Source: an uncultured Bacillota bacterium
Lineage (GTDB): Bacteria > Bacillota > Clostridia > Christensenellales > UBA1242
Length of the DNA: 64,000 nucleotides
Reading direction: 5' to 3'
Assembly: GCA_948465545.1 (NCBI GenBank)
Contig: CAOJXO010000001.1
Location: 188,450 to 252,449, forward strand
The notes beneath the pieces were generated by a model, which worked only from the letters and a program-made list of their open reading frames with translations, did not search any database and had not been told where the DNA came from. The position numbers were made by a program, and so were the translations under genes. Positions 31,566 to 46,634 of this stretch are shown in pieces; position 1 is the stretch's first letter; each line of letters opens with the position of its first letter.

Positions 31566-32393
31566 ATGGAAAAGAAGAGTTTTATAGCAAATAGAAATGA
31601 TAAACTTGCCAACCTTTTGTCAGGAGAGGGGTTTTCTTATAATTATGCAAGTAAGTTGATACGAAATAAAGACGTTAAAGTTGATGGCGTTCGTGTAAAA
31701 GAAAATATTGATGTTATGGTCGGTAGCGAAGTGACGGTATTTTTTGCTGAAAACAGTATTATAGAGAAGTTTGAAGTAATCTTTGAAGATGATAATGTTT
31801 TAATTATTGATAAAAAAGCAGGAATAGAGGTGGAAGGTGCAGAAGGGCTGGAAGGCAAGATAGTTGGTGCTCTTGCGGTGCATAGACTGGATCGAAATAC
31901 TGAAGGGCTTTTGGTTATGGCAAAAAATGTTATGGCAAGAGATGAACTTTTAGAGGCTTTTAAAAATCACAATGTTGAAAAGAGATATATTGCAGAGGTT
32001 GTTGGAAAAAGCAGTTTCAAGGGCGAATTAAAAAAGGCTTATTTAGTAAAAGATAAAACAACATCTTTCGTGAAGATATACAACAATTATGTTAAGGGTG
32101 CGGTGGAAATTGCCACAGAATTTACCACCTTAAAGTCTAATCCAACATCAAGTATTGTGGAGTGTAAATTGATTACTGGGAAAACACATCAAATAAGGGC
32201 ACACCTTGCCTATCTTGGTTACCCTATTATAGGTGATGGTAAATATGGTAAAAATGAAGATAATAAAAAATTTAAGCAAAAATGGCAAAAATTATATTGT
32301 TATTATTTAAAATTTGGAAAATTTGAAAATAATCTAAAATATTTATCTCAGAAAAAATTTACAAAATATCCGTCATGGTATAGTAAAAATTAA
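31566..32393 (+). CDS. RluA-family pseudouridine synthase with an S4-like N-terminus
   Basis: Catalytic HRLDRNTEGLLV and GKTHQIRAHLAYLGYPIIGDGKYG. Confidence 0.85.
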   Translation: MEKKSFIANRNDKLANLLSGEGFSYNYASKLIRNKDVKVDGVRVKENIDVMVGSEVTVFFAENSIIEKFEVIFEDDNVLIIDKKAGIEVEGAEGLEGKIVGALAVHRLDRNTEGLLVMAKNVMARDELLEAFKNHNVEKRYIAEVVGKSSFKGELKKAYLVKDKTTSFVKIYNNYVKGAVEIATEFTTLKSNPTSSIVECKLITGKTHQIRAHLAYLGYPIIGDGKYGKNEDNKKFKQKWQKLYCYYLKFGKFENNLKYLSQKKFTKYPSWYSKN

Positions 32394-32405
32394 AGGAAAA
32401 TATTA

Positions 32406-32443
32406 AAAAATCACAAAAAAATATTAAAAATTGTGATTTTTTA
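32406..32443 (+). terminator. Probable terminator after the pseudouridine synthase gene
   Basis: AAATCACAA...TTGTGATTT hairpin (14-nt A-rich loop) plus a T-run. Confidence 0.5.
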
Positions 32444-32540
32444 TTTATTTTAAATATTTTTTAGTTGTAAAACTGATTCAAATTAATTAATAAATATTTT
32501 TTAATTAATTTATATTTATATAAAATATATTAAAATTTGT

Positions 32541-32570
32541 TTGATAAAAATGGGGTGAAAGTGTTAAAAT
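32541..32570 (+). promoter_or_regulatory. Extended -10 promoter of the giant lipoprotein gene
   Basis: TTGATA-18 nt-TAAAAT with TG at -15/-14. SD GGGGGA lies before ATG 32598. Confidence 0.5.
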
Positions 32571-32597
32571 AAACTAAGATAAAACAGGGGGATTTAA

Positions 32598-35500
32598 ATG
32601 AATAAAATCCGTTCGGCACTGCTTGTTGTTATGCTAACCTTGTTTTCCGCTTTTACTATGGTTGCTTGTGGAAGTGGAAATGACCCCAAAGCAGTTTTTG
32701 CAAAAGAAGAATTTGAGTTATCGCTGGAAGAGACGATAAACTTTTTTGATTATCTTACCTTTGAAAATGTTGATACAGAAAATGTTTCATTATCATTCAG
32801 CAATGACAATCTTTTTAACGTAAATGATAATGGCGAATATACAGCAGTGCAAAGTGGGACGACATTCGTGAAAGTGATGTATGAAGAAAACCTGCTTACA
32901 AGTTGCAAGGTGATTGTTAAACAAATGTTTACTACCCCAACAGATATCGTTGTAAATGATGAGGGAGTGATATCTTGGAAAGGTTCTTCTGCCTTTAATG
33001 ACAACAGCATGGTATCTGCAAATGGATACATAGTGGAAGTTAATGGTGTTGAATATAGTGTCACTGGAACAAGTTTTAACCTTACTGAAAGGGGCGAGTA
33101 CAGTGTACGTGTGAAGGCACAAGCCTTTGGAAAGATAGATGCATCTGCTTACAGCAAGATATATGCAATTAACTATGGTGTTTTGGAAAGGGCGGAGATC
33201 ACTTCTTTCAATGTGTCAAATGATTTTGGAAATCAAGAGGCGGAGATTGAGTGGTCGATAGTGCCTCTTGCAAGATACAATGTTTATCTTGATGGATTTA
33301 AAGTAGAGTCTGAAATCACAAGAAATAGTGTGGTATTAAACTTTTCAAACTTCTATGAAGGGCAAAGTGTAGAAGTTGTTGTTGAGGCTATTGATAGAAC
33401 GGGAAACTTACTTTCAAGTCGCAATACTATCACCGTACAAAAGATTGCAAGGCCAACCCTTAGTTATGATTTTAGTGGAGGGCAAGGAAAGGTTGTTTGG
33501 AATGGCAGTCAGGGTGCAACATCTTATACAATTCAATGTCTTAATAGAAACAATCCTTCTGATGTTCGTGTTATTTATGCAAAAGCTAACGAGGTTGAAA
33601 GTGCGCTTGAAGGGATTTCTTCGGGAATTTATACAGTATCCCTCCAAGCAAATGGCGGGAGAAATGCAAATGGATATTTTGTAAATAGCAATACTGATTC
33701 AAGAGAGTTTGCTAAAATAGCAAAACCTATTGTTTCACATTCTATTCTGGGTGGCAACCTTACTATAAATATTGAGCCAGACAGTTATGCGGAAAACTAT
33801 TTAATTTCATATGGCGATTTTTCTATGATATGGAATGTTAAAGAACGCGGTTATGTTGCAAGTATAAACATCTCCTCTTTTGAGAAGGGAAAACATGATG
33901 TAAAAGTAACCGCACTCCCTTTGACTGATGATAACAAGGTAAAAGAGTTTTCTGAAGGCATGTTTTCAACTTCACGAGTTGTTAACTCTGACTCACATGT
34001 AATAGAAATTTACATATTAGAGAATGTGACAAACATTTCTCATAAGATAGAAGACGGATGTTCTATATTAACTTTTGATGAGGTTGAGTACGCAACACAA
34101 TATATGGTGGAAGTTGGCGGACAAGTGTTTACCGATTTTGTGAAAGAAAATGGAGTTGTGGCATTTAACCTTGGGGAATTAAGCAATGTTGCACCTAGTG
34201 GTGGAGTGTACAAATTTAATATAACCGCAAGCAGAGATGATGGCAACACTATTTCAAGCAGTGGTGAAAAATCAGTTTCTATACTTAACATAACAAGTAA
34301 GGCGGAAGAACAAGAAAATGGATACTACGCATGGAATAAAGTAAACGACAACACCCAATATTTATATGAGATTTATATCGTTGATAAAAACTTCTCTATT
34401 GGTGACGCAGTATCAGGAAATCCTACAGTTATTATAGAAACACCTACATCAGAATTAAAGATAGAAGATAAACTTAATTTTGGATATTACTACATTCGTA
34501 TTTATTCAATCTCAACGGATACTAACATTTATTTGGATTCAAATTTCTATGATGTGGACGGATATTTTGAGGATACATTCTTTGTGACGGAGCAAATTGA
34601 AACCCCTGAATTTGTGTTTAACCTTAATAATAAGTCTATAACAATAAACAAGGTGGCAAATGCCGAGCGGTATGAAATTGAAGTGAATGGTGAGTTGGTT
34701 GGGCGTGTATTTGATAACAACCCAAGTGAACCTACCTTAACTTATAGCCTTGCAAGCAAGTTTGATGAGGCTGGTGTATATGAGATTACAGTAAAAGCAA
34801 GTGCAGATGATGTTTTATATGATACACAATTACATACCCCTTCTGAAAAAGGACTTATATATGTAAATAAATTAAGTGCCCCAACTTTCAGTGTTGATGA
34901 GAAGGAACTATTGAGCGTTGAGGCTGTTGAGAACGCTGATAGTGTTGTAATCAAGCAGGGTGCAAATATTCTTAACCCTGACGGCGAAACCTCATTGTCT
35001 TTAGCAGGCAGAAATGGTGCTTTTGATTTAGTAATGAAATTTGTTGCAAAAGAAAGTCATGAGAATATCTATTATCTTGATAGCAATGAAATTGTTTATC
35101 ATTTTAAACGCACATCTCAACCAACCAACATTGCATTTGCAAGCGGGGTGTTAAGTTTTGATTGTGAAGATAAGGCGTATGTAGATAGATATATTGTTAC
35201 TTTAACTTTATTAGATCCAAACAACAATAACCTTACAATTACCTTTGATATTGAAAGCACAACATTTAACCTTCAAGAGTTTATTGAAGAAAAAGTGGCT
35301 TCTGATATAAGATTTGAATCAGCGTACAGTCAGTGTTCTGGCGTTGAGGTTATGGTAAGTGCTTATAAACTTGGCTTTGCAAATGTTGGGTCGCAAAGAA
35401 CTTTCTTCTTACCATCAGATAATGGCACTACGGCTTCTGGTGCGGGCAAATTAAATTTATCTCAACTTCCAGCACCTCATATTACCTTTAACCCTCAAAC

Positions 35501-38500
35501 CAAACTTTTCAGTTGGAATAGTGTTGGCTCATCGTTGACTAGATACGCAATATATGTTGACGGGGTTCTCATTAGGGATAATCTTGCTGGCACAATAGTT
35601 CCACTTGTTGACGCTATGGATTTTTCTGAGGCAAGAAATATTGTTGTAGTTGCAAGCAATCCTGAATATCTTTCTTCAGCAAATTCAAACACCATCTGTG
35701 TACGTAGACTTCAATCGGTTTCAAATGTTGGAGTGCTAAATTCAAGCGGGACAATATACTTCACTTTACCTAGTATTGACCTTTCACATGTAAAGGCGGT
35801 ATATTGTAACAACAAAGAGGTAAATTTTAATTCTTCAAATGGCTATGTGGCAATTTCCCTTGCAGATTTTGGTTCTGCTGAAACAATTTCTCTTAGCATT
35901 TCAGTTAAGGCGAATGATGGATATACAAACGCAGGTATTACATATTACTTCCTTGATAGCCTTGCATCTAATTATCAGTTTATAAATATTGATGACGAAG
36001 TTATTACTTTGAATGTTAAAGATGGTGTGCTTGTTTGGAATGATATTGCAACTAGTTTTGTAGGCGTTAAAAATAGACCGCTTACCTATACACTTAATAT
36101 CAATAAAGGGGACACCCTTGTTGAGAAAATATCAAACTTGAAAGAAAGTAAGTACAACCTTGATTCTGAGATACTTTTCAAACTTCTCACTGGCGAGTAT
36201 TCACTTAAAGTGGAGGTTGTAATAGATGATTATTCTATTGAATCAGTAGATGGCTCAAAAGGATATTTTGGGTATGCTGAAAGCAATATATTACAGGTCA
36301 AGAAACTTCCAACCTTGCAGGCTGTGGAATTTGACACTGTTGAAGATTCTTCAATTATAAAATTAACAGACCGTAAAGCATCAGCAAAGATAGTCCTTTC
36401 ATGGGAGGATATTTGGACTGATGTGGATAATGTAAGTTTTAATATTGACTTTAATAATGGGACTCAACTTGATAATATAAAAGCGGGTGCGGTGGATCAA
36501 AATTACAGTTTGTCACTTAGTGATGGTAAGTATAGATTAGAATTAAACAACTCTTACTTTACATCTGGCAACAATAGTATAAGTATATCAGTAGATGCAG
36601 ACGCCTCTATAACATCCAACGTTTACAATTATTCAATTTATAGATACAGCACCATTTCAGAACTTTCAATCAGCGACGATGGCATTCTTACTATTACGGC
36701 AGAGGAGAGGGTAGATTCCTTCCTTATAGGTGTGCTTATAGGCGGAAACAATTATTATGTTTCTACAAAGGATAGGCAGTTTAACATCATGGACGGGCTT
36801 CTTGACAAAGCCAGCGGAAACTATACTGTGGAAGTTGTTGGTTTTGATAGTGAGGGTGAGGCGATTTCAACTATGAAAGTGACAAGCATAAATGGCTATC
36901 GCTTAAACGGAATAAGTAATATCTCAATACTTGAAAATGGTAATATTAATATAACACTTTTCAGTGAGGCTGAAATTGATTCAAGAATTGTTTTTGTTGC
37001 AAACTACAATGGCAGAATTTTGACCTTTAATCCAGACAGAGTTGAAAATACAAATACTTTTGTTTATTCAATGTTAGACTTTGTTAAACTTTTTGGTATC
37101 ACTTCCGCAGGTGAGGTTAACCTTAAAGTATCGGTTCAAAAAGAGGGAAATATTAATGCTGACTGGGTAGACGTTGCATTCAATTATGCACTTGAAGATG
37201 TTGGCAATGTGACATACGCTAGGGGTAGAAATTATACCGACGATTATCTTATACTTTCATATCTTGAAGGTACAAGTGCATTTAGATTTGAACTTAATTA
37301 TACTGTTACAGACAGCAATATTCCTGTGACAACCATTAATACTTTTAGTGCAAGTGACTTACATGGATATTGGATTACGACAGATAAAGACGAGCAATAT
37401 TTTGTTAAGGAACTTCCTGCCACAGCGGTTAAGACAAGCGTTGAGTGTTATGGCATAAGCCTTAACGACTTATTAAAAGAAATTAATGGCGGTTCAATTC
37501 AAATTAATATAAGCAGAGTGCAACGCCATACAGACGGCGACAATACGGTATTCTATCAATATAACGTTGTTGGCTTCTCTTGTAATAAACTTATCCCTGT
37601 TACGGGTATAAGAATCAGTAATGATAGGGTTACATGGAACGCATCAACCAGTGCTGATGCTGAATATTATGTTTATTTCTATACATTAGACGGGGCTGAA
37701 TATAACCTTTCTTTCTATAAACATGTTACAACTGCATACATTGATATCTATGATATCGGGCTTGTGGCAGGGGTAAGATATTATATTAATGTGGTGACAG
37801 TATCTCCAACCCTTCGTCAGATTGCATCTAATGCAACCCTTAATGTTGAGGCATTTAAGTATTTAACCCCAACTGCTATAGAGGTGACTGATGGACGACT
37901 AATGTTTAATCGAGAGGATGTTCAAAAATCAGATTTATTTACTTCTATTCAAAACAATTTCAACTTAACTAATGTTACACCTAATGACATTGTTAGAAAT
38001 ATTGCAACCGCAAACTATGATGATATCTACACATTCTCTCCATCTTCAATTTCATCAGTTGTGGTTGAATTAAAGTTCCATTCTCTTGAAAATGGAAGGG
38101 ATTATGTTGTAAGGCGAAATGCAGTTGATCTTATGCCAGATATATCACAATACACATTTAAGACAAATCAAGATACTGACATTTCTTATCTGCAAGCATT
38201 GTATGATGCTGCACGTCAGTCTACCGAGCAGTATACTTATAGGCTTGATGTAGAGCGTATGTATAACGCATACTTAAATGCAAATGGAATTGCAGACTTT
38301 GAAATGTTGTTTGATGAGTTTGGTTCAAGTATTCCTGCTGGTGATTATGAGTTGTCGATTAGCCAAGAGGGGGTAGTTTTAGGTTCAGTTGGATATATCA
38401 CTTCTCATCCAACAAACACTGTTAAAGTGCATGTTGGAAGTGCGCCTAATATTAATCTTTCACGCATCTCACCAAATGGAAGAAATGAATATATAGTTTC

Positions 38501-41500
38501 GTTTACCCCAACAATGATAAAGGCTAAGGAGGGGGATGTAACAGTTTCAACTATTGCAAAGAGATATACTATGTATATGGTTAGTGCAGATAGGTCATCA
38601 CAATACTTCTTCACCATTGAAAATAATGGCACTGATGAAGAGCCTATCTATGAAATCATAAATGTTATGACTCCTACTAAGGATAGTTACGGTAAGATTT
38701 CATATAAGACATCAGCATTCGAATCGCCTATTAGGCTTGGTTATACAAATGGTAGGGTTGTAATCAACTTTACAAATGATTTGCTTCCTGCTTTCCCAGA
38801 TATTGTTAGGGCAACCTACTCATTTACAATATTCGCACAAGGAAATGATGTTACAATCAATAGTAAAACTGACATGTCTACAATTACACTTTTAGGTATT
38901 GATTATACAAATATCAATTTAAATAATGGTGTTCTCACATGGCGTACAGTTGGAAGTTCTGACTATAAGACTAGGGTGACATATAAGAAAGAGGGCGAGG
39001 GTGAAGATACCCGCGATATTGATTTTATAAACGGTCAAGCCTCACTTAGCCTTCCAGATCCAGGCGAGTACAAATATATCATTATAAGTATATTAGGTAC
39101 AATCGGTCAAAGTAGTATGACCGTGGATAGCGAAAGTTATCTTATTGAAAACATATACAAACTTACATCTCCAAGTGTATCAAAGACGGGCAATGTGTTT
39201 ACTTTAACAAATCAAAATCAAAGCAAATTCTATGCTTACACACAATTTGAGATAACTAACAATGTGGCAAAAAATACAGATGGAATAAAATCATATCTTA
39301 CAAGTTTGCTGACTGATAGGGTTTACAATTATAGTGCAGGAATTTTAGGTATGGATTCAACAAATGCTGATTATGCATACAAAGCCACCGAACAAGATGC
39401 CACAGAGTTCTACTTTGCAAGTATTGGAAACAGCACAAGATTTGTTGCTGGTGAAAGACTTGGCGAAGGAAACACCTACTATGGAAAAGCGGACTTTGTG
39501 TTAGTGCCTCCTGAGGATAGCAATATAAAATATTGTGTTCTCAACTCAAACGAAGTGCCAGTATCAGCAAGAATGCTGAAGGCGCCAACCGATCTTAAAG
39601 TTGAAAATGGCGACATTGTTTGGACTGAGAGCCCTGATGCAACAAGCGAGGATCTTCCAGCAAACAGCACGCTTGTATATGAAATTAATATACATTATTA
39701 CAAAGCAAAAGAGGACGGCTCTTACGAGATAATAGGTTCAACAGCAACCTTCTATACAACAGGGACAACATTTGACACAATCAATATTGTTGCACGTGAT
39801 GATGCAGAGTACTATATCTTTGAAGTTAGAAGTTTTGTATTCTCAAATGGTAATCAAGCAAATCATGATATTACAACCATTGACGGGCAGTATTTTAGAC
39901 GCAGTGCCGTTGAGTATCTTTCTGGTGGGGCTATTCTAGGAAGTGAGTATGCAACACTTGGCAATCACACAAGCACTATATCTAAGATTAAACCTATTAT
40001 AAATCAGAAGATTGCGAATGGAGAATTTACATGGCAAACACAGGATTCAAGCAACGGCTATGAGTGTGTTGTTGTAGACGGGGACGGAAATGTTGTACCA
40101 GGAGAATTGTTTGGAGCAGGCACAACAAATTGGAGTTTTATCCCAGATATAACTTATGAGAATAATCCATATTCATTTAAGGTTTATGTTTATGATAGGT
40201 TAACAACAACCTTGAAATCTAATCCTGTTGCTGTAACACTTGGCACAAGCAGTGAAGTGCGGGTGCTTCCAATGGTAACAAGTGAAGATTTTGCCATTGA
40301 AAAAATTGATAATGGTTATAGAATTAATCTTGAAAACCTGTATACAAACAAACAGATTTACGATACAGATGTTTACTATAATGTTAAGATGACTGTGGAA
40401 ATCGGTTATAGTGACGGTAGAAAAGAATCTCTTGAAGTAGGCTCATTTGATAGTCAGTCAAACAGTAACCGTAATTTCATTCTTACAAACGATATAGAGT
40501 TCAGTGCAAATGGAAATATTGTAAACTTACCACAAAGATATGAAAGTTTAAATATTAAATTCCAAGTACTTGTAAGGACTCAGGCTTCACAAAGCGTTAT
40601 GCTTCTTAACGGCAAGGAGAGCGAAACCTTTGCCCTTACCCCACTTGCTTGGAATGAAAACGATAAAATCACATGGAATCCAGACTTGTATCAATTTGAA
40701 TGGACTTTCGGCGAAGAGGACTTTGCTGATGCACTTTTCAATATTGATATTCAATATTCAGACGGAAACCATGAAATCAGTGATGTTGCAGGGTTAAGTT
40801 ATCAGCCTCATAAGGTAGGCACAATAATTTCTGCAAGACTGCTTGTCAGAAAAGATGCAAACTCACTTTACTCTACCGAAGCGATTGAACTTAATGAGGT
40901 TATAAGTTTCTATCTGTTTGAGGGTGGTGATGGTTCTCAAACAAACCCTTATAGAGTTGCCTCTGCAAGTCAGTTCGCAAATATAAAGTACAGAAATTCT
41001 AACAAGGAAAAATTCTATTTCCGCCAAACCGCAAGTTTTGAGGTGTCTGCCACTGGCTTTGCCTTTGATGATACCTTCTATGGCGAGTATGACGGAGGTG
41101 GATTTACAATCACATTTACAGGTGAAGCAGAGGAGATGACAGCAAGCAATCTGTCACTCCTTGCCAGCACCAGCACAAGTGAAACAACAAAAACATTTGT
41201 AAGGTTTGGCTCTCTCTTCAAGGGGATTGACGGCTCTGCAAAGGTGTCTAACTTAAAACTCAATCTTAATTTTAACAGCACTCAAACTTCTCAAAACACC
41301 TTGTTTGCAGGACTTGCTGTTACAAATTACGGTCAGATTGAAAATGTGGAAATCTTATCAATAAACACAAAATATTCAATAGGCAGGGTAAGTGACATTT
41401 CAATCGCACAAACAGGACTTGTGGCTATCAACTATGGCCGCATAACCGACTGTGTAAATAGTGCCGATATTAATATGACGGCGACTGCTGCATATACCTA

Positions 41501-42068
41501 TGGTTATAATTTGATAGTTTCAGGGCTTGTATTCACAAACGATACAAGCGGGAACAACTTTATAGGTACGCTTACAAGATGTTTCAATAAAGGAAAGATT
41601 GATGTTAGCGTATCACGCAGTAACAGTGCAATGTGGATAAGCGGTGTTGTTCTTAACAACATTGGCGGTAAAATGGCACAATGCGGAAACGATGGCAATA
41701 TTAATGCAAACGGCTCAGTGTTTACAAGTTACATTGCTGGCGTAGTTATGAGGAGTATAGGCGGAGATATCTCTTACACATATAACAATGGTGAAATAAA
41801 ATCAAACTCTTCTTCTAATTATGCGGGCGGTGTTGCCTACTATTTAAGAGGGGTAAGGATTGCTGGACTTGTTGATACCAACACATATATTGCTAGGGTA
41901 TGTACCAGTATAACAAACAGCACCACTGTTTCAAGTTATTGTAAGGTGGCTTATCAAACTTCTGGCATAAATATAGTTGCAATCGAACCAACCATTTTGT
42001 CTTGTGGTGACGGCCATTCACTTACAATTACCGCTGTGGAAGACGGATATAAGGCTTCTATTTCTTAA
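32598..42068 (+). CDS. Giant (3156 aa) surface lipoprotein: Big_2-like module, a long array of FN3/Ig-like modules, and a C-terminal GLUG-type parallel beta-helix
   Basis: Uninterrupted 9.47-kb ORF. Lipobox LFSAFTMVAC/GSG. Recurrent h-x-W...Y-x-[IV] module openings. C-terminal NPYRVASASQF...FYGEYDGGGFTITFTG is followed by repeated GL[VA]xxNxGxIxxCxNxGxI turns. Confidence 0.85.
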   Translation: MNKIRSALLVVMLTLFSAFTMVACGSGNDPKAVFAKEEFELSLEETINFFDYLTFENVDTENVSLSFSNDNLFNVNDNGEYTAVQSGTTFVKVMYEENLLTSCKVIVKQMFTTPTDIVVNDEGVISWKGSSAFNDNSMVSANGYIVEVNGVEYSVTGTSFNLTERGEYSVRVKAQAFGKIDASAYSKIYAINYGVLERAEITSFNVSNDFGNQEAEIEWSIVPLARYNVYLDGFKVESEITRNSVVLNFSNFYEGQSVEVVVEAIDRTGNLLSSRNTITVQKIARPTLSYDFSGGQGKVVWNGSQGATSYTIQCLNRNNPSDVRVIYAKANEVESALEGISSGIYTVSLQANGGRNANGYFVNSNTDSREFAKIAKPIVSHSILGGNLTINIEPDSYAENYLISYGDFSMIWNVKERGYVASINISSFEKGKHDVKVTALPLTDDNKVKEFSEGMFSTSRVVNSDSHVIEIYILENVTNISHKIEDGCSILTFDEVEYATQYMVEVGGQVFTDFVKENGVVAFNLGELSNVAPSGGVYKFNITASRDDGNTISSSGEKSVSILNITSKAEEQENGYYAWNKVNDNTQYLYEIYIVDKNFSIGDAVSGNPTVIIETPTSELKIEDKLNFGYYYIRIYSISTDTNIYLDSNFYDVDGYFEDTFFVTEQIETPEFVFNLNNKSITINKVANAERYEIEVNGELVGRVFDNNPSEPTLTYSLASKFDEAGVYEITVKASADDVLYDTQLHTPSEKGLIYVNKLSAPTFSVDEKELLSVEAVENADSVVIKQGANILNPDGETSLSLAGRNGAFDLVMKFVAKESHENIYYLDSNEIVYHFKRTSQPTNIAFASGVLSFDCEDKAYVDRYIVTLTLLDPNNNNLTITFDIESTTFNLQEFIEEKVASDIRFESAYSQCSGVEVMVSAYKLGFANVGSQRTFFLPSDNGTTASGAGKLNLSQLPAPHITFNPQTKLFSWNSVGSSLTRYAIYVDGVLIRDNLAGTIVPLVDAMDFSEARNIVVVASNPEYLSSANSNTICVRRLQSVSNVGVLNSSGTIYFTLPSIDLSHVKAVYCNNKEVNFNSSNGYVAISLADFGSAETISLSISVKANDGYTNAGITYYFLDSLASNYQFINIDDEVITLNVKDGVLVWNDIATSFVGVKNRPLTYTLNINKGDTLVEKISNLKESKYNLDSEILFKLLTGEYSLKVEVVIDDYSIESVDGSKGYFGYAESNILQVKKLPTLQAVEFDTVEDSSIIKLTDRKASAKIVLSWEDIWTDVDNVSFNIDFNNGTQLDNIKAGAVDQNYSLSLSDGKYRLELNNSYFTSGNNSISISVDADASITSNVYNYSIYRYSTISELSISDDGILTITAEERVDSFLIGVLIGGNNYYVSTKDRQFNIMDGLLDKASGNYTVEVVGFDSEGEAISTMKVTSINGYRLNGISNISILENGNINITLFSEAEIDSRIVFVANYNGRILTFNPDRVENTNTFVYSMLDFVKLFGITSAGEVNLKVSVQKEGNINADWVDVAFNYALEDVGNVTYARGRNYTDDYLILSYLEGTSAFRFELNYTVTDSNIPVTTINTFSASDLHGYWITTDKDEQYFVKELPATAVKTSVECYGISLNDLLKEINGGSIQINISRVQRHTDGDNTVFYQYNVVGFSCNKLIPVTGIRISNDRVTWNASTSADAEYYVYFYTLDGAEYNLSFYKHVTTAYIDIYDIGLVAGVRYYINVVTVSPTLRQIASNATLNVEAFKYLTPTAIEVTDGRLMFNREDVQKSDLFTSIQNNFNLTNVTPNDIVRNIATANYDDIYTFSPSSISSVVVELKFHSLENGRDYVVRRNAVDLMPDISQYTFKTNQDTDISYLQALYDAARQSTEQYTYRLDVERMYNAYLNANGIADFEMLFDEFGSSIPAGDYELSISQEGVVLGSVGYITSHPTNTVKVHVGSAPNINLSRISPNGRNEYIVSFTPTMIKAKEGDVTVSTIAKRYTMYMVSADRSSQYFFTIENNGTDEEPIYEIINVMTPTKDSYGKISYKTSAFESPIRLGYTNGRVVINFTNDLLPAFPDIVRATYSFTIFAQGNDVTINSKTDMSTITLLGIDYTNINLNNGVLTWRTVGSSDYKTRVTYKKEGEGEDTRDIDFINGQASLSLPDPGEYKYIIISILGTIGQSSMTVDSESYLIENIYKLTSPSVSKTGNVFTLTNQNQSKFYAYTQFEITNNVAKNTDGIKSYLTSLLTDRVYNYSAGILGMDSTNADYAYKATEQDATEFYFASIGNSTRFVAGERLGEGNTYYGKADFVLVPPEDSNIKYCVLNSNEVPVSARMLKAPTDLKVENGDIVWTESPDATSEDLPANSTLVYEINIHYYKAKEDGSYEIIGSTATFYTTGTTFDTINIVARDDAEYYIFEVRSFVFSNGNQANHDITTIDGQYFRRSAVEYLSGGAILGSEYATLGNHTSTISKIKPIINQKIANGEFTWQTQDSSNGYECVVVDGDGNVVPGELFGAGTTNWSFIPDITYENNPYSFKVYVYDRLTTTLKSNPVAVTLGTSSEVRVLPMVTSEDFAIEKIDNGYRINLENLYTNKQIYDTDVYYNVKMTVEIGYSDGRKESLEVGSFDSQSNSNRNFILTNDIEFSANGNIVNLPQRYESLNIKFQVLVRTQASQSVMLLNGKESETFALTPLAWNENDKITWNPDLYQFEWTFGEEDFADALFNIDIQYSDGNHEISDVAGLSYQPHKVGTIISARLLVRKDANSLYSTEAIELNEVISFYLFEGGDGSQTNPYRVASASQFANIKYRNSNKEKFYFRQTASFEVSATGFAFDDTFYGEYDGGGFTITFTGEAEEMTASNLSLLASTSTSETTKTFVRFGSLFKGIDGSAKVSNLKLNLNFNSTQTSQNTLFAGLAVTNYGQIENVEILSINTKYSIGRVSDISIAQTGLVAINYGRITDCVNSADINMTATAAYTYGYNLIVSGLVFTNDTSGNNFIGTLTRCFNKGKIDVSVSRSNSAMWISGVVLNNIGGKMAQCGNDGNINANGSVFTSYIAGVVMRSIGGDISYTYNNGEIKSNSSSNYAGGVAYYLRGVRIAGLVDTNTYIARVCTSITNSTTVSSYCKVAYQTSGINIVAIEPTILSCGDGHSLTITAVEDGYKASIS

Positions 42069-42109
42069 ATAAAAGCATGAAAGGAAAATAAAAGGAATAA
42101 ACATATAGC

Positions 42110-42982
42110 ATGAAGAAGTTTTGTTTTGTAATCGCGTTAATATTATCATGTTGCATGTTCTTTGGTTGTGGCGGTCAAAGACTGCCTTCTTCAAACGAGT
42201 TTATTCTGCTGTCAGTGTCAGCGGATAGCGAAGGGCAGATGACACAATCGCTCAACTTTTCGCTTGGCAGTGATAAACTTGATGGGGCGGGTGCAACAGC
42301 CTTAGACAGGGCAAATATAAAAAATAAACTTATTGAAAATGTTAAGGTTTTTAGAGCGGAGTTTTATCTAAACTTTGCAATCGTATACAATCAGTCCTCA
42401 GCGGAGAATAAAGAGGAATACCAAATTGGTAAGGGACTTCTAATATCAGAGGTGGTGTATACCGAAGCGTCTGACTCGGTTGGTTTCAATATGGTTTTCA
42501 CATCAAGTGACGCATGGAACTTCTATCACCCAAAATCATCTGACGGCGAAAGCCAGCCAGATGTTGAGTATGGATATTTGGTAATTTCAAGTTCAAAAGG
42601 ATTGTTCCCTTTTGCTGGCGAAGTTGAGGTGTCTGGCAATAAGATTATGGTTGGCGAAAGATATGTAAATGCCTATAAAGATGCACTTAGTCAAGCAAGC
42701 AACCTTAGCGTGCAATATGACCCTGACCTTGTGTATGACTATGGCACAAAAGAGCCTAGTATCAGAAGCGATAGCGAATACTATTTTGTAGATAACAGCG
42801 GAATCTATCATCATGTTTGGATGCGTAAGCATAGCGAATATGTGAATAACACATCTATTGAAATTTACATCATGCAAGCCAATAGGGGATTATGGTATGC
42901 CACTGCACTTGGTGGTACACTTTTAGTTCTGGGGATAGCAATTATAATCATAAAACTTAAACAGAAAAAACAGCCTAAATAA
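42110..42982 (+). CDS. Lipoprotein with an additional C-terminal TM anchor, function unknown
   Basis: Lipobox SCCMFFGC/GGQ. C-terminal LWYATALGGTLLVLGIAIIIIKL followed by KQKKQPK. Lies 41 nt after the giant gene with no terminator in between. Confidence 0.7.
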   Translation: MKKFCFVIALILSCCMFFGCGGQRLPSSNEFILLSVSADSEGQMTQSLNFSLGSDKLDGAGATALDRANIKNKLIENVKVFRAEFYLNFAIVYNQSSAENKEEYQIGKGLLISEVVYTEASDSVGFNMVFTSSDAWNFYHPKSSDGESQPDVEYGYLVISSSKGLFPFAGEVEVSGNKIMVGERYVNAYKDALSQASNLSVQYDPDLVYDYGTKEPSIRSDSEYYFVDNSGIYHHVWMRKHSEYVNNTSIEIYIMQANRGLWYATALGGTLLVLGIAIIIIKLKQKKQPK

Positions 42983-42994
42983 TGGCTGTTTTTT

Positions 42995-43402
42995 TTATTT
43001 GCCAGTAAGCAGATGAAGCATATCTACATCGTAATAGCAAATGGAATATCTATCAGTTGTAATGTTGATGTCTTTAAACTCTTTATTTGTTTTGGATATA
43101 AAGTAAACAAATCCTAAGATAAGTCTGTTTATTATAATATTGTCAAGATTGTCACAAAAATAAATGTCTTTAAGTGCATAAACATAATCATTGTTATTTG
43201 CTAAAAACTCAACAATAGTCTTTTTTACAAGGGCGAGGTTATTTAACCTCACCCTTTTTATAATGTTGAATTGGCATATACACTTTTGGGGAGGAATAAC
43301 TTTTAAAAGTTCTTGATAGAAATCGTCACATAAAAACCTCCTTGCCATTTCCGTTGGGAATACCATTGCCATAATTTTCTCTGCTTGTGTGTATTTACTC
43401 AT
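42995..43402 (-). CDS. Hypothetical cytoplasmic protein (135 aa)
   Basis: ORF with a strong SD (AAGGAGG) before ATG 43402. No motif recognised. Confidence 0.55.
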   Translation of the reverse strand: MSKYTQAEKIMAMVFPTEMARRFLCDDFYQELLKVIPPQKCICQFNIIKRVRLNNLALVKKTIVEFLANNNDYVYALKDIYFCDNLDNIIINRLILGFVYFISKTNKEFKDINITTDRYSICYYDVDMLHLLTGK

Positions 43403-43537
43403 ATTTACCTCCTTAACCATGCAGTACAAAAAGTGTTCTTTTAGTGTTGCATAAGACTATTTTAACATCTTTTCGCACGGGAAACAAAACTAAATAGACA
43501 CTTTTTGATAGAATTTTTCTAAATTAAAGGAGTTTCA

Positions 43538-43978
43538 ATGTCGAACTTTGTTGAAAGATTAAATTCATTATTAGAAGAAGAAAATTTAACAATAAGGCAG
43601 TTATCACGAGAGATAGGTGTAAGTAGTTCTCAGTTAAGTAAATATTTGACTGGCTATTATGAGCCATCACTTAAGAACGCTCTAAAAATCGCGGACTATT
43701 TTTCATGTTCTTTAGATTATTTGTTTGGCTTAGAGCCATTTAAACAAAATTCTTATTCTTATGGAGAGCCTGATAAAAAGGTGTTTGTTGAAAGATTTAA
43801 AGAGTTGGTTGAGCGAAGAAAAACAAATTTCAATAGAATTTCAAAGCATACTTATTTAAATCGAAACACTATTTACAACTGGGAAACAACGGCTAATTTT
43901 CCTAAAGTGGGAATTCTTGTAAAGTTGGCAGGAGAACTGAATGTGACTGTTGAATTTTTGATTGGCAGAATAAATTGA
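43538..43978 (+). CDS. XRE-family regulator with two tandem HTH domains
   Basis: Two HTH_XRE-like halves: LTIRQLSREIGVSSSQLSKYLTG...LDYLFG and FNRISKHTYLNRNTIYNWET...VEFLIGR. Confidence 0.8.
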   Translation: MSNFVERLNSLLEEENLTIRQLSREIGVSSSQLSKYLTGYYEPSLKNALKIADYFSCSLDYLFGLEPFKQNSYSYGEPDKKVFVERFKELVERRKTNFNRISKHTYLNRNTIYNWETTANFPKVGILVKLAGELNVTVEFLIGRIN

Positions 43979-43985
43979 GGTGGCT

Positions 43986-44423
43986 ATGGAGTTTAAAGAT
44001 GTGTTAAATGATTTGTTGGTGGAAAGAAACTTAACGGTTCAAGATTTGAGTAAACAGATTGCGATAGACGATTCGATTTTATATGATTATTGTAATGGCG
44101 GAATGCCAAGTATAAAGTATGCTGTTACTTTGGCAAATTACTTTGACTGCTCTTTGTCATATTTAATGGGGCTTGTAGACAATCCTAAAAGTTTTGTGTT
44201 TTCAAGCGATTATGATATGGGAGTGTTTTCTCCTAGATATGAGAAACTTTTACACGATAATAAAACAACTCATTTTAAGGTTAGCAAAGAGTCTGGATTA
44301 AATTATTCCAGTAACTATGCTTGGAAAAGAGGCTCAATTCCAGCGATGAGTTCTTTAATTATAATTGCACGTTATTTCGACGTAAGCATTGACTATCTTG
44401 TAGGGCGAAGCGATAGAGTTTAA
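43986..44423 (+). CDS. XRE-family regulator with two tandem HTH domains (paralogue of the preceding gene)
   Basis: Same two-domain layout: LTVQDLSKQIAIDDSILYDY...LSYLMG and HFKVSKESGLNYSSNYAWKRG...IDYLVGR. Start is ATG 43986 or GTG 43980. Confidence 0.75.
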   Translation: MEFKDVLNDLLVERNLTVQDLSKQIAIDDSILYDYCNGGMPSIKYAVTLANYFDCSLSYLMGLVDNPKSFVFSSDYDMGVFSPRYEKLLHDNKTTHFKVSKESGLNYSSNYAWKRGSIPAMSSLIIIARYFDVSIDYLVGRSDRV

Positions 44424-44476
44424 TCTTCTATCGCTTTTTAATTTGAAAACTTTTTAAAAAATTCTTTCTATCTTTG

Positions 44477-44505
44477 TTGAATTTTTGGTGACGGTGTGGT
44501 AAACT
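44477..44505 (+). promoter_or_regulatory. Extended -10 promoter of typA
   Basis: TTGAAT-17 nt-TAAACT preceded by TGg. Confidence 0.5.
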
Positions 44506-44530
44506 AATTAAGTTAAAAGGACTTTATATT

Positions 44531-46367: not shown

Positions 46368-46634
46368 ATGGCAAGACTGAATCCGCAGGAAAACAAACAT
46401 CTTCACAGAAACTATAAACGCATGATGTGGTTTGTATGCGTATTCTTTGTCTTTGCTTTGGTAATTTGTTATCTTCTTCAACGTGCAGGATTAAGCCCTG
46501 TACTTAATGGTTTTATTATTATCTGCCTTGCAGGAGTTTTCTACTTGCTGTTTTGGTTGATTTGTGCTAAAATTGATAAAAAGAGAGAGGAAAAGCGGAA
46601 GCAAGACGATAACCGTGACCCTTTTACTCACTAG
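46368..46634 (+). CDS. Small membrane protein (two TM helices), unknown function
   Basis: 88 aa with two hydrophobic helices and a charged tail. Lies 4 nt after the typA stop. Confidence 0.5.
   Translation: MARLNPQENKHLHRNYKRMMWFVCVFFVFALVICYLLQRAGLSPVLNGFIIICLAGVFYLLFWLICAKIDKKREEKRKQDDNRDPFTH

What the first reader, a model, noticed from the sequence alone, without database searches (positions are those of the whole stretch)
32394..44530. 12-kb accessory module between housekeeping genes: giant lipoprotein, doubly anchored lipoprotein, small unknown protein and twin double-HTH regulators
Five genes without housekeeping counterparts lie between a RluA-family gene and typA:
- a 3156-aa lipoprotein;
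- a 290-aa lipoprotein with a second C-terminal anchor, 41 nt downstream and with no terminator in between;
- a convergent 135-aa protein with a strong SD;
- two tandem paralogous regulators, each made of two XRE-type HTH domains.
The module is preceded by a 200-bp extremely AT-rich spacer with an extended -10 promoter. I recognise no sortase signal, secretion-system gene, glycosyltransferase or mobile-element gene in it. It therefore reads as a self-contained cell-surface module with dedicated regulation, and its function cannot be inferred from known families.
Basis: inference. Interest (0 to 1): 0.7.

Follow-up and report, generated by a model that had tools for sequence, protein, structure and literature searches.

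The report
Giant lipoprotein fibril plus membrane partner
An uncultured group of gut Clostridia carries a conserved two-gene operon for a 3,156-residue lipid-anchored surface fibre and a small doubly anchored membrane partner, both from uncharacterised families, while the three small neighbouring genes are an unrelated, lineage-specific insertion.

Summary
The five genes are not one module.

**Giant and partner are a unit.**
- The giant (32598-42068) and the 290-aa partner (42110-42982) form one operon, bounded by hairpin terminators.
- In 61 related species genomes with a full flank upstream of typA, 44 have both genes, 17 have neither and none has only one.
- The promoter is conserved across relatives whose giants are only 24-37 % identical.

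**What the proteins look like.**
- Giant: an invariant lipobox Cys, a long non-repetitive chain of diverged Fn3/Ig-like modules, and a C-terminal beta-helix with the fold of PDB 3N6Z.
- Partner: a signal peptide with a lipobox-like Cys, a roughly 230-aa ectodomain and a C-terminal TM helix. This is the topology of M. tuberculosis LppM, with a weak fold match.
- Neither protein has a Pfam or NCBIfam family.

**The other three genes are separate.**
- The 135-aa ORFan and the two double-HTH genes occur only in this species and its nearest relative.
- They have their own terminators.
- The HTH genes resemble phage-type repressors.
- They share no operator with the giant's promoter.

Best reading: a lipid-anchored surface fibril, probably adhesive, with a base partner. 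This is a new variant of a known kind and of moderate interest.

The parts
32404..32443 (+). Hairpin terminator of the upstream rluA-like gene. It marks the 5' boundary of the giant's transcription unit.
   Evidence: RNA fold -10.3 kcal/mol, z = -4.6, followed by a T run.
32394..32597 (+). Extremely AT-rich upstream spacer, possibly an UP-element-like region, containing the promoter.
   Evidence: 13.7 % GC against 35.1 % for the window; lowest 0.3 % of 204-nt windows. No Rfam family in it. Spacers of 270-300 bp, also AT-rich, precede the giant in L005, L006 and L009.
32541..32570 (+). Sigma-A-type promoter with extended -10 (TTGATA, 18 nt, TG-n-TAAAAT).
   Evidence: Consensus scan. The block TTTG..(17-18 nt)..AAAGTGnTAAnAT is the only well conserved stretch in an alignment of the upstream regions from four species whose giants are 24-30 % identical.
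32598..32669 (+). Giant: signal peptide and lipobox (MNKIRSALLVVMLTLFSAFTMVAC, Cys24).
   Evidence: Cys24 is invariant in 15 of 15 homologues, all with L/V-[AST]-[AS]-C-type lipoboxes. Lipidation itself is inferred.
32670..40916 (+). Giant: about 2,750-residue stalk of diverged, non-repetitive Fn3/Ig-like beta-sandwich modules (roughly 25-30, estimated from length).
   Evidence: No internal BLASTP self-hits. An iterated HMM links 9 modules here and 6-15 in homologues. Profile-to-PDB search gives weak Fn3, ChiN and cytokine-receptor hits. The last three modules are modelled as beta-sandwiches and match tandem FnIII structures, E about 1e-5. Homologues are colinear along the whole length, with about 25-30 % identity in nearly every 100-aa block.
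40917..42068 (+). Giant: C-terminal right-handed beta-helix 'tip' domain (begins LFEGGDGSQTNPY...).
   Evidence: Family profile against PDB sequences: 3N6Z 'putative IgA1 protease' BACOVA_03286, E 1.6e-5. AlphaFold model, pLDDT mostly 80-97 in this part. Foldseek top hit is 3N6Z: E 3.7e-6, TM (target) 0.53, 357 aligned columns. Pfam GLUG itself was not hit.
42110..42982 (+). Partner: 290-aa protein with an N-terminal signal peptide and lipobox-like Cys20, an alpha/beta ectodomain and a C-terminal TM helix with a short basic tail. Co-transcribed with the giant.
   Evidence: 41-nt gap with no terminator. Homologues at 29-56 % identity lie directly after every giant examined. 269 clusters in 1.84 billion representatives, mostly about 270-300 aa. 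No Pfam family. Model pLDDT 83. Foldseek top hit is M. tuberculosis LppM, 2NC8: E 4.7e-4, probability 0.98, but TM only 0.24/0.35.
42963..42996 (.). Bidirectional hairpin terminator ending both the giant-partner operon and the convergent 135-aa gene.
   Evidence: RNA fold -16.4 kcal/mol, z = -5.8. An A run lies upstream and a T run downstream.
42995..43402 (-). 135-aa ORFan with a strong SD. Not part of the giant unit; belongs to the lineage-specific insertion.
   Evidence: Only its own 99 % cluster in 5.8 billion proteins, plus a 52 % identical 133-aa gene at the same place in L010. No Pfam, NCBIfam, PHROG, PADLOC, PDB, phage or IMG/VR match.
43403..43537 (.). Divergent promoter spacer between the 135-aa gene and the HTH genes.
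   Evidence: 29.6 % GC. It shares only TGTTAAAATA (an extended -10) with the giant's spacer: 1 shared 10-mer against 0.5 expected.
43538..43978 (+). HTH1: 146-aa protein with two XRE/Cro-C1-type HTH domains.
   Evidence: HTH_3 64.8 bits, HTH_19 with two stretches, Phage_CI_repr at 108-142. phrog_8 E 5e-33. 27 % identical over 86 % of its length to the regulator phiCDKH01_17, which lies in the lysogeny region of a C. difficile phage.
43980..44423 (+). HTH2: 147-aa paralogue of HTH1 (145 aa if it starts at the ATG at 43986).
   Evidence: 35 % identity to HTH1, E 1e-28. HTH_3 with two stretches. 145 relatives on IMG/VR viral contigs, most of the 80 listed aligned across both domains. L010 has three such genes in tandem.
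44407..44437 (+). Hairpin terminator after HTH2.
   Evidence: Terminator scan. RNA fold -14.4 kcal/mol, z = -4.2.
44477..44505 (+). typA's own promoter (TTGAAT, 17 nt, TG-n-TAAACT). It marks the 3' boundary of the insertion.
   Evidence: The same GTTGAA(A/T)TTT ... TGTGGTA(A/T)... AAGTTAAAAGGA block precedes typA in L004, L010, L011, L012, L019 and L021, with or without the insertion.

Best explanation
The region contains two unrelated things.

**(1) A two-gene operon, giant plus partner (32541-42996).**
- It is driven by a conserved sigma-A-type extended -10 promoter behind a very AT-rich upstream region.
- The giant is exported by Sec and, by inference from an invariant lipobox, lipid-anchored to the outer face of the cytoplasmic membrane at Cys24.
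- About 25-30 individually diverged Fn3/Ig-like beta-sandwich modules then form a long rod. At roughly 3.5-4 nm per module it would be of the order of 100 nm. It would cross the wall and present a C-terminal right-handed beta-helix domain at its distal end.
- That tip most probably binds a ligand, such as a glycan or a surface of the host, of food particles or of other cells.
- The 290-aa partner is clamped to the same membrane at both ends: an N-terminal signal peptide with a lipobox-like Cys and a C-terminal TM helix. Its LppM-like ectodomain most probably acts at the base of the fibre, docking, organising or helping to fold or insert it.
- The pair is vertically inherited and fast-evolving in a clade of uncultured, spore-forming gut Clostridia.

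**(2) A 1.5-kb lineage-specific insertion between the partner's terminator and typA's promoter.**
- It carries a 135-aa ORFan and, divergently, two paralogous phage-repressor-like double-HTH proteins.
- They most likely regulate their own small unit rather than the giant.

**Shown versus inferred.**
- Shown: gene structure, co-occurrence, synteny, promoter conservation, fold assignments, and absence of the trio elsewhere.
- Inferred: lipidation, rod geometry, ligand binding, and the partner's role.
For: **Operon structure**
- 41-nt gap, no terminator between the two genes, and hairpin terminators on both sides.
- The promoter block is conserved in four species.

**Co-occurrence**
- With HMMs of the partner and of the giant's C-terminal 700 residues, run on 61 species-representative loci that have a full 10-kb flank upstream of typA: 44 have both, 17 have neither, 0 have only one.
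- Six more loci with short flanks also have both.

**Evolution**
- The giant family is colinear over its whole length at 24-37 % identity. Cys24 is invariant.
- TypA in the same genomes is 77-93 % identical.
- Length is tightly kept: 3141-3287 aa in 12 of the 15 aligned family members, this window's giant included.

**Folds**
- Stalk.
- Tip: 3N6Z by sequence profile (E 1.6e-5) and by structure (E 3.7e-6, TM 0.53).
- Partner: confident model (pLDDT 83). The best structural match is LppM, which has the same signal peptide, lipobox, soluble domain and C-terminal TM layout (PMC5217060) and binds a glycolipid (PMC6151718).

**Trio is separate**
- Present only in L010 and in the window's own species.
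- Own terminators.
- The HTH class is common on viral contigs and in a phage lysogeny module.
- No shared operator with the giant's spacer.
- The partner-typA junction holds other cargo in other species: peroxiredoxin-like and Fur-like ORFs by eye, a MetK-like ORF by eye, a second partner paralogue, and large unknown ORFs.
Against: - No experiment and no expression data: lipidation, surface exposure and rod shape are all inferred.
- Only the last 700 of 3156 residues were modelled. The rest of the stalk is assigned from weak sequence signals and from length.
- The tip's ligand is unknown. 3N6Z is itself a structural-genomics protein without a known function, and the Pfam GLUG model does not match.
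- The LppM match has low TM-scores (0.24/0.35) and no sequence support.
- 13 of 59 partner homologues lack the Cys at the aligned position, so lipidation of the partner is not universal.
- The fixed length and the lack of repeat expansion are unusual for adhesins and fit a structural role at least as well.
- 17 of 61 related species lack the pair upstream of typA. I could not check whether it lies elsewhere in those genomes, as it does in L006.
- Regulation of the giant in trans by the HTH proteins cannot be excluded by sequence alone.
Confidence: 0.6

Rival explanations
1. The giant-partner pair is a structural element of the cell envelope: a fixed-length spacer, tether or surface-layer-like scaffold anchored in the membrane. 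It would not be a ligand-binding adhesin. The beta-helix would then bind the cell's own wall polymers or an outer layer.
For: - Length is conserved within about 5 % (3141-3287 aa) in 12 of the 15 aligned family members, this window's giant included, at only 25-37 % identity.
- Every module is individually conserved and colinear. There are no recent repeats and no copy-number change.
- Clade-wide synteny among housekeeping genes, and a conserved strong-looking promoter.
- An obligatory membrane partner.
Against: - No SLH, CWB2 or other wall-binding domain was detected.
- 17 of 61 related species lack the pair at this site, which would be odd for an essential envelope part.
- Fast sequence divergence is typical of exposed, interaction-driven proteins.
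- The same data fit a fibrillar adhesin with a non-repetitive stalk.
Confidence: 0.2
2. One reading: all five genes form one self-contained surface module, in which the two double-HTH proteins are the dedicated regulators of the giant operon and the 135-aa protein is an accessory factor.
For: - Physical adjacency in this genome and in L010.
- The paralogous HTH genes are kept, and even expanded to three, next to the giant pair in both species.
- In-trans regulation cannot be excluded by sequence.
Against: - 49 of 50 related species with the giant pair lack the trio at this site.
- Separate terminators and promoters.
- No shared operator-like motif between the two spacers.
- The giant's promoter is conserved in species that have no such regulators nearby.
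- The HTH class is typical of prophages.
- Other XRE genes or unrelated cargo occupy the same junction in other species, with or without a giant.
Confidence: 0.07
3. The pair is a sporulation or spore-surface component (for example a spore appendage or coat tether), as hinted by its position next to spoIIP, yabQ and yabP.
For: - SpoIIP, YabQ and YabP genes lie immediately upstream in the window.
- YabP is also upstream in L006 and L009.
- The clade encodes Spo0A.
Against: - The conserved promoter looks like a vegetative sigma-A promoter: TTGATA, 18 nt, TG-n-TAAAAT. Comparison with the sigma-E, -K, -F and -G consensus sequences is from my own knowledge, not from a tool.
- The sporulation genes are on the opposite strand, and an rluA-like gene and a terminator lie between.
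- A lipoprotein signal peptide points to the cytoplasmic membrane of the cell that expresses it.
Confidence: 0.05

Closest known systems
Giant extracellular surface proteins and fibrillar adhesins of Firmicutes, for example Giant1-5 of Apilactobacillus kunkeei (PMC12863079)
   Same: - 3,000-8,000-aa secreted proteins with a long elongated stalk and a beta-solenoid or beta-helix domain at the end far from the anchor.
- Encoded in small genomes of host-associated bacteria.
- Fast-evolving, with no curated family for most of their length (abstract read).
   Different: - Polarity is inverted: here the anchor is an N-terminal lipobox and the beta-helix is C-terminal, whereas the A. kunkeei proteins have the beta-solenoid at the N-terminus.
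- A single gene with an obligatory 290-aa partner, rather than a cluster of giants.
- The stalk is non-repetitive and its length is conserved.
- Strict synteny and vertical inheritance.
- I ran no sequence or structure comparison between this giant and the A. kunkeei proteins.
BACOVA_03286 of Bacteroides ovatus, PDB 3N6Z ('putative immunoglobulin A1 protease', a GLUG-type beta-helix)
   Same: - The giant's last 380 or so residues match it by sequence profile (E 1.6e-5, including the LF-GG-GT---PY-I motif).
- They also match it by predicted structure (Foldseek E 3.7e-6, TM 0.53).
   Different: - 15 % identity.
- 3N6Z is a stand-alone 360-aa protein of unknown function.
- The Pfam GLUG model does not reach E 0.1 on the giant.
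- No protease domain or motif was detected in the giant.
Mycobacterium tuberculosis LppM (Rv2171), PDB 2NC8
   Same: - Same unusual topology: signal peptide, lipobox Cys, soluble domain of about 160-230 aa, C-terminal TM helix (PMC5217060).
- It is the top Foldseek hit of the partner model (E 4.7e-4, probability 0.98).
   Different: - TM-scores are only 0.24/0.35 and identity is 8 %.
- No sequence-level relationship.
- The partner is about 70 residues longer and has a long extra helix.
- LppM is not known to be paired with a giant protein.
- Its glycolipid binding (PMC6151718) cannot be transferred to the partner.
Phage CI/Cro-type (XRE) repressors with two HTH domains, for example phiCDKH01_17 of a Clostridioides difficile phage
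   Same: - HTH1 and HTH2 pass Pfam HTH_3 thresholds with two domains each.
- HTH1 is 27 % identical over 86 % of its length to a phage regulator that sits between an integrase and antirepressor genes.
- For HTH2, 145 relatives lie on IMG/VR viral contigs.
   Different: - Here there is no integrase, no antirepressor and no phage structural gene. The genes sit as a 1.5-kb island between chromosomal housekeeping genes.
- They are tandemly duplicated (two copies here, three in L010).
- Their divergent neighbour is an ORFan.

Membership tests
Bacterial lipoproteins (Lgt/Lsp substrates) | N-terminal signal peptide ending in a lipobox with an invariant Cys at +1 | tested here: met
   Giant: n-region K/R, hydrophobic core, then MVAC. 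The Cys is invariant in 15 of 15 homologues, all with [LVS]-[AST]-[AS]-C-type boxes. Partner: FFGC, with a Cys at the aligned column in 46 of 59 homologues. This box is non-canonical, and some members clearly lack it.
Bacterial lipoproteins (Lgt/Lsp substrates) | Actual diacylglyceryl modification and signal peptidase II cleavage | not testable with these tools
   Needs globomycin sensitivity, mass spectrometry or labelling.
Fibrillar adhesins (stalk of repeated domains, adhesive tip, surface anchor) | Stalk built of tandem Ig/Fn3-like domains | tested here: met
   The three modules before the tip are modelled as beta-sandwiches and match tandem FnIII structures. An iterated HMM links 9 more modules. 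Weak Fn3 hits from the profile-to-PDB search. The middle of the protein was not modelled.
Fibrillar adhesins (stalk of repeated domains, adhesive tip, surface anchor) | Stalk domains are near-identical tandem repeats that vary in number | tested here: not met
   No off-diagonal BLASTP self-hit at E <= 10. No tandem repeats in the gene. Homologues are colinear and of nearly constant length.
Fibrillar adhesins (stalk of repeated domains, adhesive tip, surface anchor) | A recognised adhesive (ligand-binding) domain | tested here: inconclusive
   The tip has the beta-helix fold of 3N6Z, a fold often used for glycan binding. The function of 3N6Z is unknown, and no known adhesin domain was hit.
Fibrillar adhesins (stalk of repeated domains, adhesive tip, surface anchor) | Sortase (LPXTG) or other wall anchor | tested here: not met
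   There is no LPXTG-like motif near the C-terminus. The only match to the pattern LP.[TSA][GAN] is internal, LPATA at residue 1606. Anchoring is instead by the N-terminal lipobox.
GLUG-motif beta-helix domains (Pfam PF07581; structure 3N6Z) | Match to the Pfam GLUG model | tested here: not met
   No GLUG hit at E <= 0.1. In contrast, an unrelated 1347-aa protein in L046 hits GLUG at 2.3e-9.
GLUG-motif beta-helix domains (Pfam PF07581; structure 3N6Z) | Same fold and N-terminal cap motif as 3N6Z | tested here: met
   Profile against PDB, E 1.6e-5 over the LFxGGxGTxxxPYxI...YFxL cap. Foldseek E 3.7e-6, TM 0.53 on the target, rmsd 6.1 angstroms over 357 columns.
LppM family (M. tuberculosis Rv2171) | Topology: signal peptide, lipobox, soluble domain, C-terminal TM helix | tested here: met
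   Partner sequence and model compared with the LppM description (PMC5217060).
LppM family (M. tuberculosis Rv2171) | Shared fold (pseudo beta-barrel closed by a helix) | tested here: inconclusive
   Top and only Foldseek hit below 1e-3 (E 4.7e-4, probability 0.98), but TM 0.24/0.35 and rmsd 15 angstroms.
LppM family (M. tuberculosis Rv2171) | Detectable sequence homology | tested here: not met
   A profile of 59 partner homologues finds only lipoprotein signal peptides in the PDB. No Pfam family for any of the 59.
XRE / Cro-C1 HTH transcription factors (HTH1, HTH2) | HTH_3-type domain above the Pfam gathering score, with two domains per protein | tested here: met
   HTH_3 at 64.8 and 47.3 bits against a cut-off of 23. 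Two stretches for HTH_19 in HTH1 and for HTH_3 and HTH_26 in HTH2. C-terminal halves match Phage_CI_repr and RstR.
Genomic island or mobile element (for the whole 12 kb) | Mobility genes, atypical composition, patchy presence against conserved flanks | tested here: not met
   No recombinase family was hit in the scans of the five products (also for the four small ones). GC and GC3 are in the range of the neighbours. Giant plus partner are syntenic in 50 related species. Only the 1.5-kb trio is an insertion relative to the other relatives, and it too lacks mobility genes and flanking repeats.
Toxin-antitoxin or anti-phage defence system (for the trio) | Match of the non-HTH component to a known toxin or effector family | tested here: not met
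   The PADLOC hits to the two regulators are to HTH-type proteins (RmrA, capH and similar). The 135-aa protein has only a Cas11a hit at E 0.022, which I treat as noise.

The most novel reading that the evidence does not exclude
The giant and its partner are the two parts of a so far undescribed, length-defined surface organelle that characterises a whole family-level clade of uncultured gut Clostridia. It would be a roughly 100-nm lipid-anchored 'ruler' fibre whose 25-30 unique modules each have a fixed position, seated on an LppM-like base protein that handles a membrane lipid or glycolipid. It would work as an attachment or cell-to-cell contact device rather than as a generic repeat adhesin.
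Probability: 0.15. Interest if true: 0.7.

Novelty: new variant of a known kind. Interest (0 to 1): 0.4.

Why it matters
**If the reading is right:**
- A widespread but uncultured group of gut Clostridia, with MAGs from humans, mice, rabbits, deer, ruminants and chickens, devotes about 10 kb behind a conserved strong-looking promoter to one surface fibre with a dedicated base protein.
- Neither protein has a family, a name or a structure.
- The fibre is likely the main interface between these bacteria and the host, the diet or their neighbours. It would be an obvious target for cryo-ET, metaproteomics and glycan-binding work.
- The perfect giant-partner co-occurrence gives a clean two-component system to test.
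- The partner family (269 clusters) could be registered as a new domain family, and it serves as a marker for the system.

**For genome annotation:**
- Adjacency in a single genome suggested a 'regulated five-gene module'.
- Comparison across species dissolves it into a conserved pair plus a junction that collects unrelated small cargo.

Tried and rejected
**Locus searches**
- A single-protein scan of GTDB genomes with the window's partner found nothing.
- I therefore anchored on typA and tested its flanks with tblastn and HMMs.
- A scan with the L006 partner returned only its own genome. So I could not show whether the 17 species lacking the pair at typA carry it elsewhere.
- In some of them the DNA upstream of typA encodes AddA/AddB-like proteins, pyruvate formate-lyase and similar genes, which points to a rearrangement breakpoint.

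**Family and similarity searches that found nothing**
- Pfam and NCBIfam gave nothing for the giant, the partner or the 135-aa protein.
- PHROGs and PADLOC gave nothing for the partner or the 135-aa protein. The giant was not scanned against these two libraries.
- Self-BLAST of the giant found no repeats.
- Rfam found no RNA element in the AT-rich leader.
- Partner model against viral structures: nothing significant.
- 135-aa protein: nothing in 5.8 billion proteins beyond its own cluster, and nothing in the PDB, GenBank phages or IMG/VR.

**Regulatory link**
- A search for a shared operator between spacers 32394-32597 and 43403-43537 found only the extended -10 sequence, at chance level.

**Ideas considered and rejected**
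- Recent horizontal acquisition of the 12 kb: rejected because composition is ordinary and synteny is clade-wide.
- IgA protease function: the 3N6Z name is only an annotation, and no protease domain is present.
- Sporulation role: rejected on promoter type and gene orientation.
- Homology between this giant and the second giant ORF at 55784 onwards: no BLASTP similarity between the latter's first 600 residues and this giant's C-terminal 422 residues.

Full report
**Observation.** The ORF map matches the finding base for base.
- RluA-type pseudouridine synthase gene, 31566-32393.
- 3156-aa ORF, 32598-42068.
- 290-aa ORF, 42110-42982, 41 nt downstream of the giant.
- Convergent ORF, 42995-43402. 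It is 135 aa from the ATG at 43402, which is preceded by AGGAGG.
- Two tandem 146/147-aa ORFs, 43538-43978 and 43980-44423.
- typA at 44531.

The spacer 32394-32597 is 13.7 % GC, in the lowest 0.3 % of the window. It contains TTGATA-18-TAAAAT with an upstream TG. The two small regulators are paralogues, 35 % identical with E 1e-28, and each has two XRE-type HTH domains. Pfam and NCBIfam have no family for the giant, the partner or the 135-aa product, and PHROGs and PADLOC (not run on the giant) have none for the partner or the 135-aa product.

**Transcription units.** Three hairpin terminators fold far better than shuffled controls:
- 32404-32443, after the rluA-like gene.
- 42963-42996, a bidirectional one between the partner and the convergent 135-aa gene.
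- 44407-44437, after HTH2.

typA has its own promoter at 44477-44505. That promoter is conserved in relatives whether or not anything is inserted upstream of it. So the 12 kb contains three units: giant plus partner, the 135-aa gene, and HTH1 plus HTH2.

**Comparative genomics.** This is the decisive part.
- The giant has 15 homologues of 3141-3723 aa in 5.8 billion proteins. One is a 99 % identical copy from the window's own species; the other 14 are 24-34 % identical. None is named.
- In the contigs that carry four of them, the order is yabP, rluA-like, giant, a 250-305-aa gene, then typA, an 88-aa gene and dnaB. In one lineage bacA follows instead of typA. None of these contigs has a 135-aa gene or an HTH pair.
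- The 250-305-aa proteins are homologues of the window's partner, 29-48 % identical.
- Anchoring on typA gave 80 species-representative genomes of uncultured Clostridia. NCBI names them variously as Clostridia, Eubacteriales, 'Christensenella' or 'Catabacter'. The sources named in the record titles include mouse (MGBC), rabbit (Lapin), water-deer, ruminant (RUG) and human cohort (Hadza, Nepal) MAGs.
- Profile HMMs of the partner and of the giant's C-terminal 700 residues were run on these loci. Of 61 loci with a full 10-kb upstream flank, 44 have both genes, 17 have neither and none has only one. Six loci with shorter flanks also have both.
- The 135-aa gene and the double-HTH genes are found in only one of these species, L010. 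It is the nearest relative (TypA 93 % identical), and it has a 133-aa homologue plus three double-HTH genes.
The giant-partner pair passes it cleanly.

**The partner-typA junction is variable.**
- In most of the species with both genes the partner lies immediately upstream of typA; in L011 the intergenic gap is only tens of bases.
- In others the same junction holds different cargo: a peroxiredoxin-like and a Fur-like ORF (judged by eye), a MetK-like ORF (by eye), a second partner-like paralogue (L032, L033), or 646-718-aa unknown ORFs.
- In two relatives whose short upstream flank shows no giant (L020, L028; in L020 a 605-aa uvrB-like ORF, judged by eye, lies upstream), other small XRE genes sit just before typA.
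- The double-HTH architecture is common on viral contigs. 145 IMG/VR relatives were found, most of the 80 listed aligned across both domains.
- The best GenBank phage match is a regulator lying between the integrase and antirepressor genes of a C. difficile phage.
- The two spacers share one 10-mer, TGTTAAAATA. It is simply an extended -10, and one shared 10-mer is what chance gives (0.5 expected).
- The 135-aa protein is an ORFan.
- I conclude that the trio is a small, probably phage-derived, self-regulating insertion with no demonstrable link to the giant.

**The giant.**
- The family aligns colinearly over its whole length, with about 25-30 % identity in nearly every 100-residue block.
- Cys24 of the lipobox is invariant, and all 15 members have classic L/V-[AST]-[AS]-C boxes.
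- There is no internal repetition detectable by BLASTP or TRF. An iterated HMM nevertheless links 9 modules of about 60-75 residues in this protein and 6-15 in its homologues.
- The family profile weakly matches Fn3 and ChiN-type domains in the PDB.
- An AlphaFold model of the last 700 residues (pLDDT 78.6, and 80-97 in the last domain) shows three beta-sandwich modules followed by a beta-helix.
- Foldseek matches the sandwiches to tandem FnIII structures. It matches the helix to PDB 3N6Z with E 3.7e-6 and TM 0.53. The sequence profile finds the same entry at E 1.6e-5.
- No C-terminal sortase motif, wall-binding domain or enzyme domain is detected.
- Length is tightly conserved: 3141-3287 aa in 12 of the 15 aligned family members, this window's giant included. 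A three-member subfamily is longer (3626-3723 aa) and carries about 100-280 extra residues in the C-terminal region compared with the other members.

**The partner.**
- An exhaustive profile search of 1.84 billion representative proteins finds 269 clusters, mostly about 270-300 aa.
- None matches a Pfam family. The profile finds only lipoprotein signal peptides in the PDB.
- 46 of 59 sampled members have the Cys at the lipobox position, and at least 50 of 59 have an uncharged C-terminal helix.
- The AlphaFold model (pLDDT 83) has an alpha/beta ectodomain between the two membrane segments.
- Its only Foldseek hit below 1e-3 is M. tuberculosis LppM (E 4.7e-4, probability 0.98, TM 0.24/0.35).
- LppM has the same rare layout of lipobox plus C-terminal TM helix (PMC5217060) and binds a mannosylated phosphatidylinositol (PMC6151718).
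- I treat this as a lead about topology and possibly about fold. It is not evidence of family membership.

**Promoter.** I aligned the regions upstream of the giant from the window, L005, L006 and L009, whose giants are 24-30 % identical. The one conserved block is TTTG(A/G).. 17-18 nt ..AAAGTG(T/C)TA(A/T)(A/T)AT, the -35 and extended -10 found by the scan. It sits behind 150-250 bp of nearly pure A+T. This looks like a strong vegetative promoter. The comparison with sporulation-sigma consensus sequences comes from my own knowledge, not from a tool. Rfam finds no RNA family in the region.

**Mechanism.** The best-supported reading runs as follows.
- The operon makes a lipid-anchored fibre.
- An N-terminal acyl anchor holds the giant at the membrane.
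- A rod of roughly 25-30 unique beta-sandwich modules extends outward. Its length, of the order of 100 nm, is inferred from module number.
- A beta-helix tip probably binds a ligand.
- A doubly anchored partner sits at the base.

Exposure and interaction-driven evolution would explain why the giant diverges so much faster (24-37 % identity) than TypA (77-93 %) in the same genomes. The main rival is a structural 'ruler' role in the envelope, which the fixed length and the non-repetitive, position-specific modules fit well.

**Comparison with known systems.**
- The overall kind, a giant surface fibre with an Ig-like stalk and a beta-solenoid tip, is known, for example Giant1-5 of Apilactobacillus kunkeei (PMC12863079).
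- The differences are the inverted polarity (lipid anchor at the N-terminus, tip at the C-terminus), the lack of repeats, the conserved length, the strict pairing with an uncharacterised LppM-like partner, and the clade-wide synteny among housekeeping genes.
- Both protein families are unnamed and outside Pfam and NCBIfam.

**Verdict.**
- It is a new variant of a known kind.
- Interest is moderate. Giant surface proteins are common. However, the clean two-component co-inheritance and the ruler-like conservation make a testable system in an abundant uncultured gut lineage.

Noticed in passing
window 55784-64000 (+), runs off the 3' end: A second giant ORF of at least 2,738 aa. It starts MKKKVLKSIYCMAIILLTLGTLSFVPMF, a Sec-type signal with no lipobox. 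It has no Pfam hit at E <= 0.01. BLASTP finds no similarity between its first 600 residues and the C-terminal 422 residues of the first giant. The ORF listing does not show it because it is cut by the window end.
   Followed up: partly
partner-typA junction: L014 8661-9759; L023 7890-9830; L032 7845-8759; L033 8925-9851; L037 7712-9868; L073 8761-9858: The short junction between the partner and typA is a variable slot. Different species hold peroxiredoxin-like plus Fur-like ORFs, a MetK-like ORF, 646-718-aa unknown ORFs, or a second partner-like paralogue without a lipobox (L032, L033). The assignments are by eye from N-terminal sequences, not from family scans.
   Followed up: partly
L010 7782-9650 and 9650-9950: The nearest relative has a 133-aa homologue of the ORFan followed by three (not two) double-HTH paralogues. 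After these comes a stretch of about 300 bp, visibly more GC-rich than its surroundings (by eye), that has no counterpart in the window.
   Followed up: partly
L020 1946-2482; L028 547-1630: In two relatives whose short upstream flank shows no giant, clusters of small single-domain XRE HTH genes sit directly upstream of typA. This spot seems to collect XRE-type genes regardless of the giant.
   Followed up: no
L046 3269-7309: One species lacking the giant pair has, upstream of typA, a 1347-aa protein that does hit Pfam GLUG (2.3e-9) and the Listeria-Bacteroides repeat. So another surface protein occupies the same neighbourhood.
   Followed up: no
window 46368-46634, 48083-48979 and 48976-50082: Three genes flank dnaB: an 88-aa protein (only a weak MscS_TM hit) and two proteins of 298 and 368 aa with no Pfam family. 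All are syntenically conserved in the relatives.
   Followed up: no
window 44477-44520 and the equivalent in L004, L010, L011, L012, L019, L021: typA is preceded by a strongly conserved promoter and leader block: GTTGAA(A/T)TTT, 17 nt, TGTGGTA(A/T)..., then AAGTTAAAAGGA containing the SD. It is conserved across the clade.
   Followed up: no
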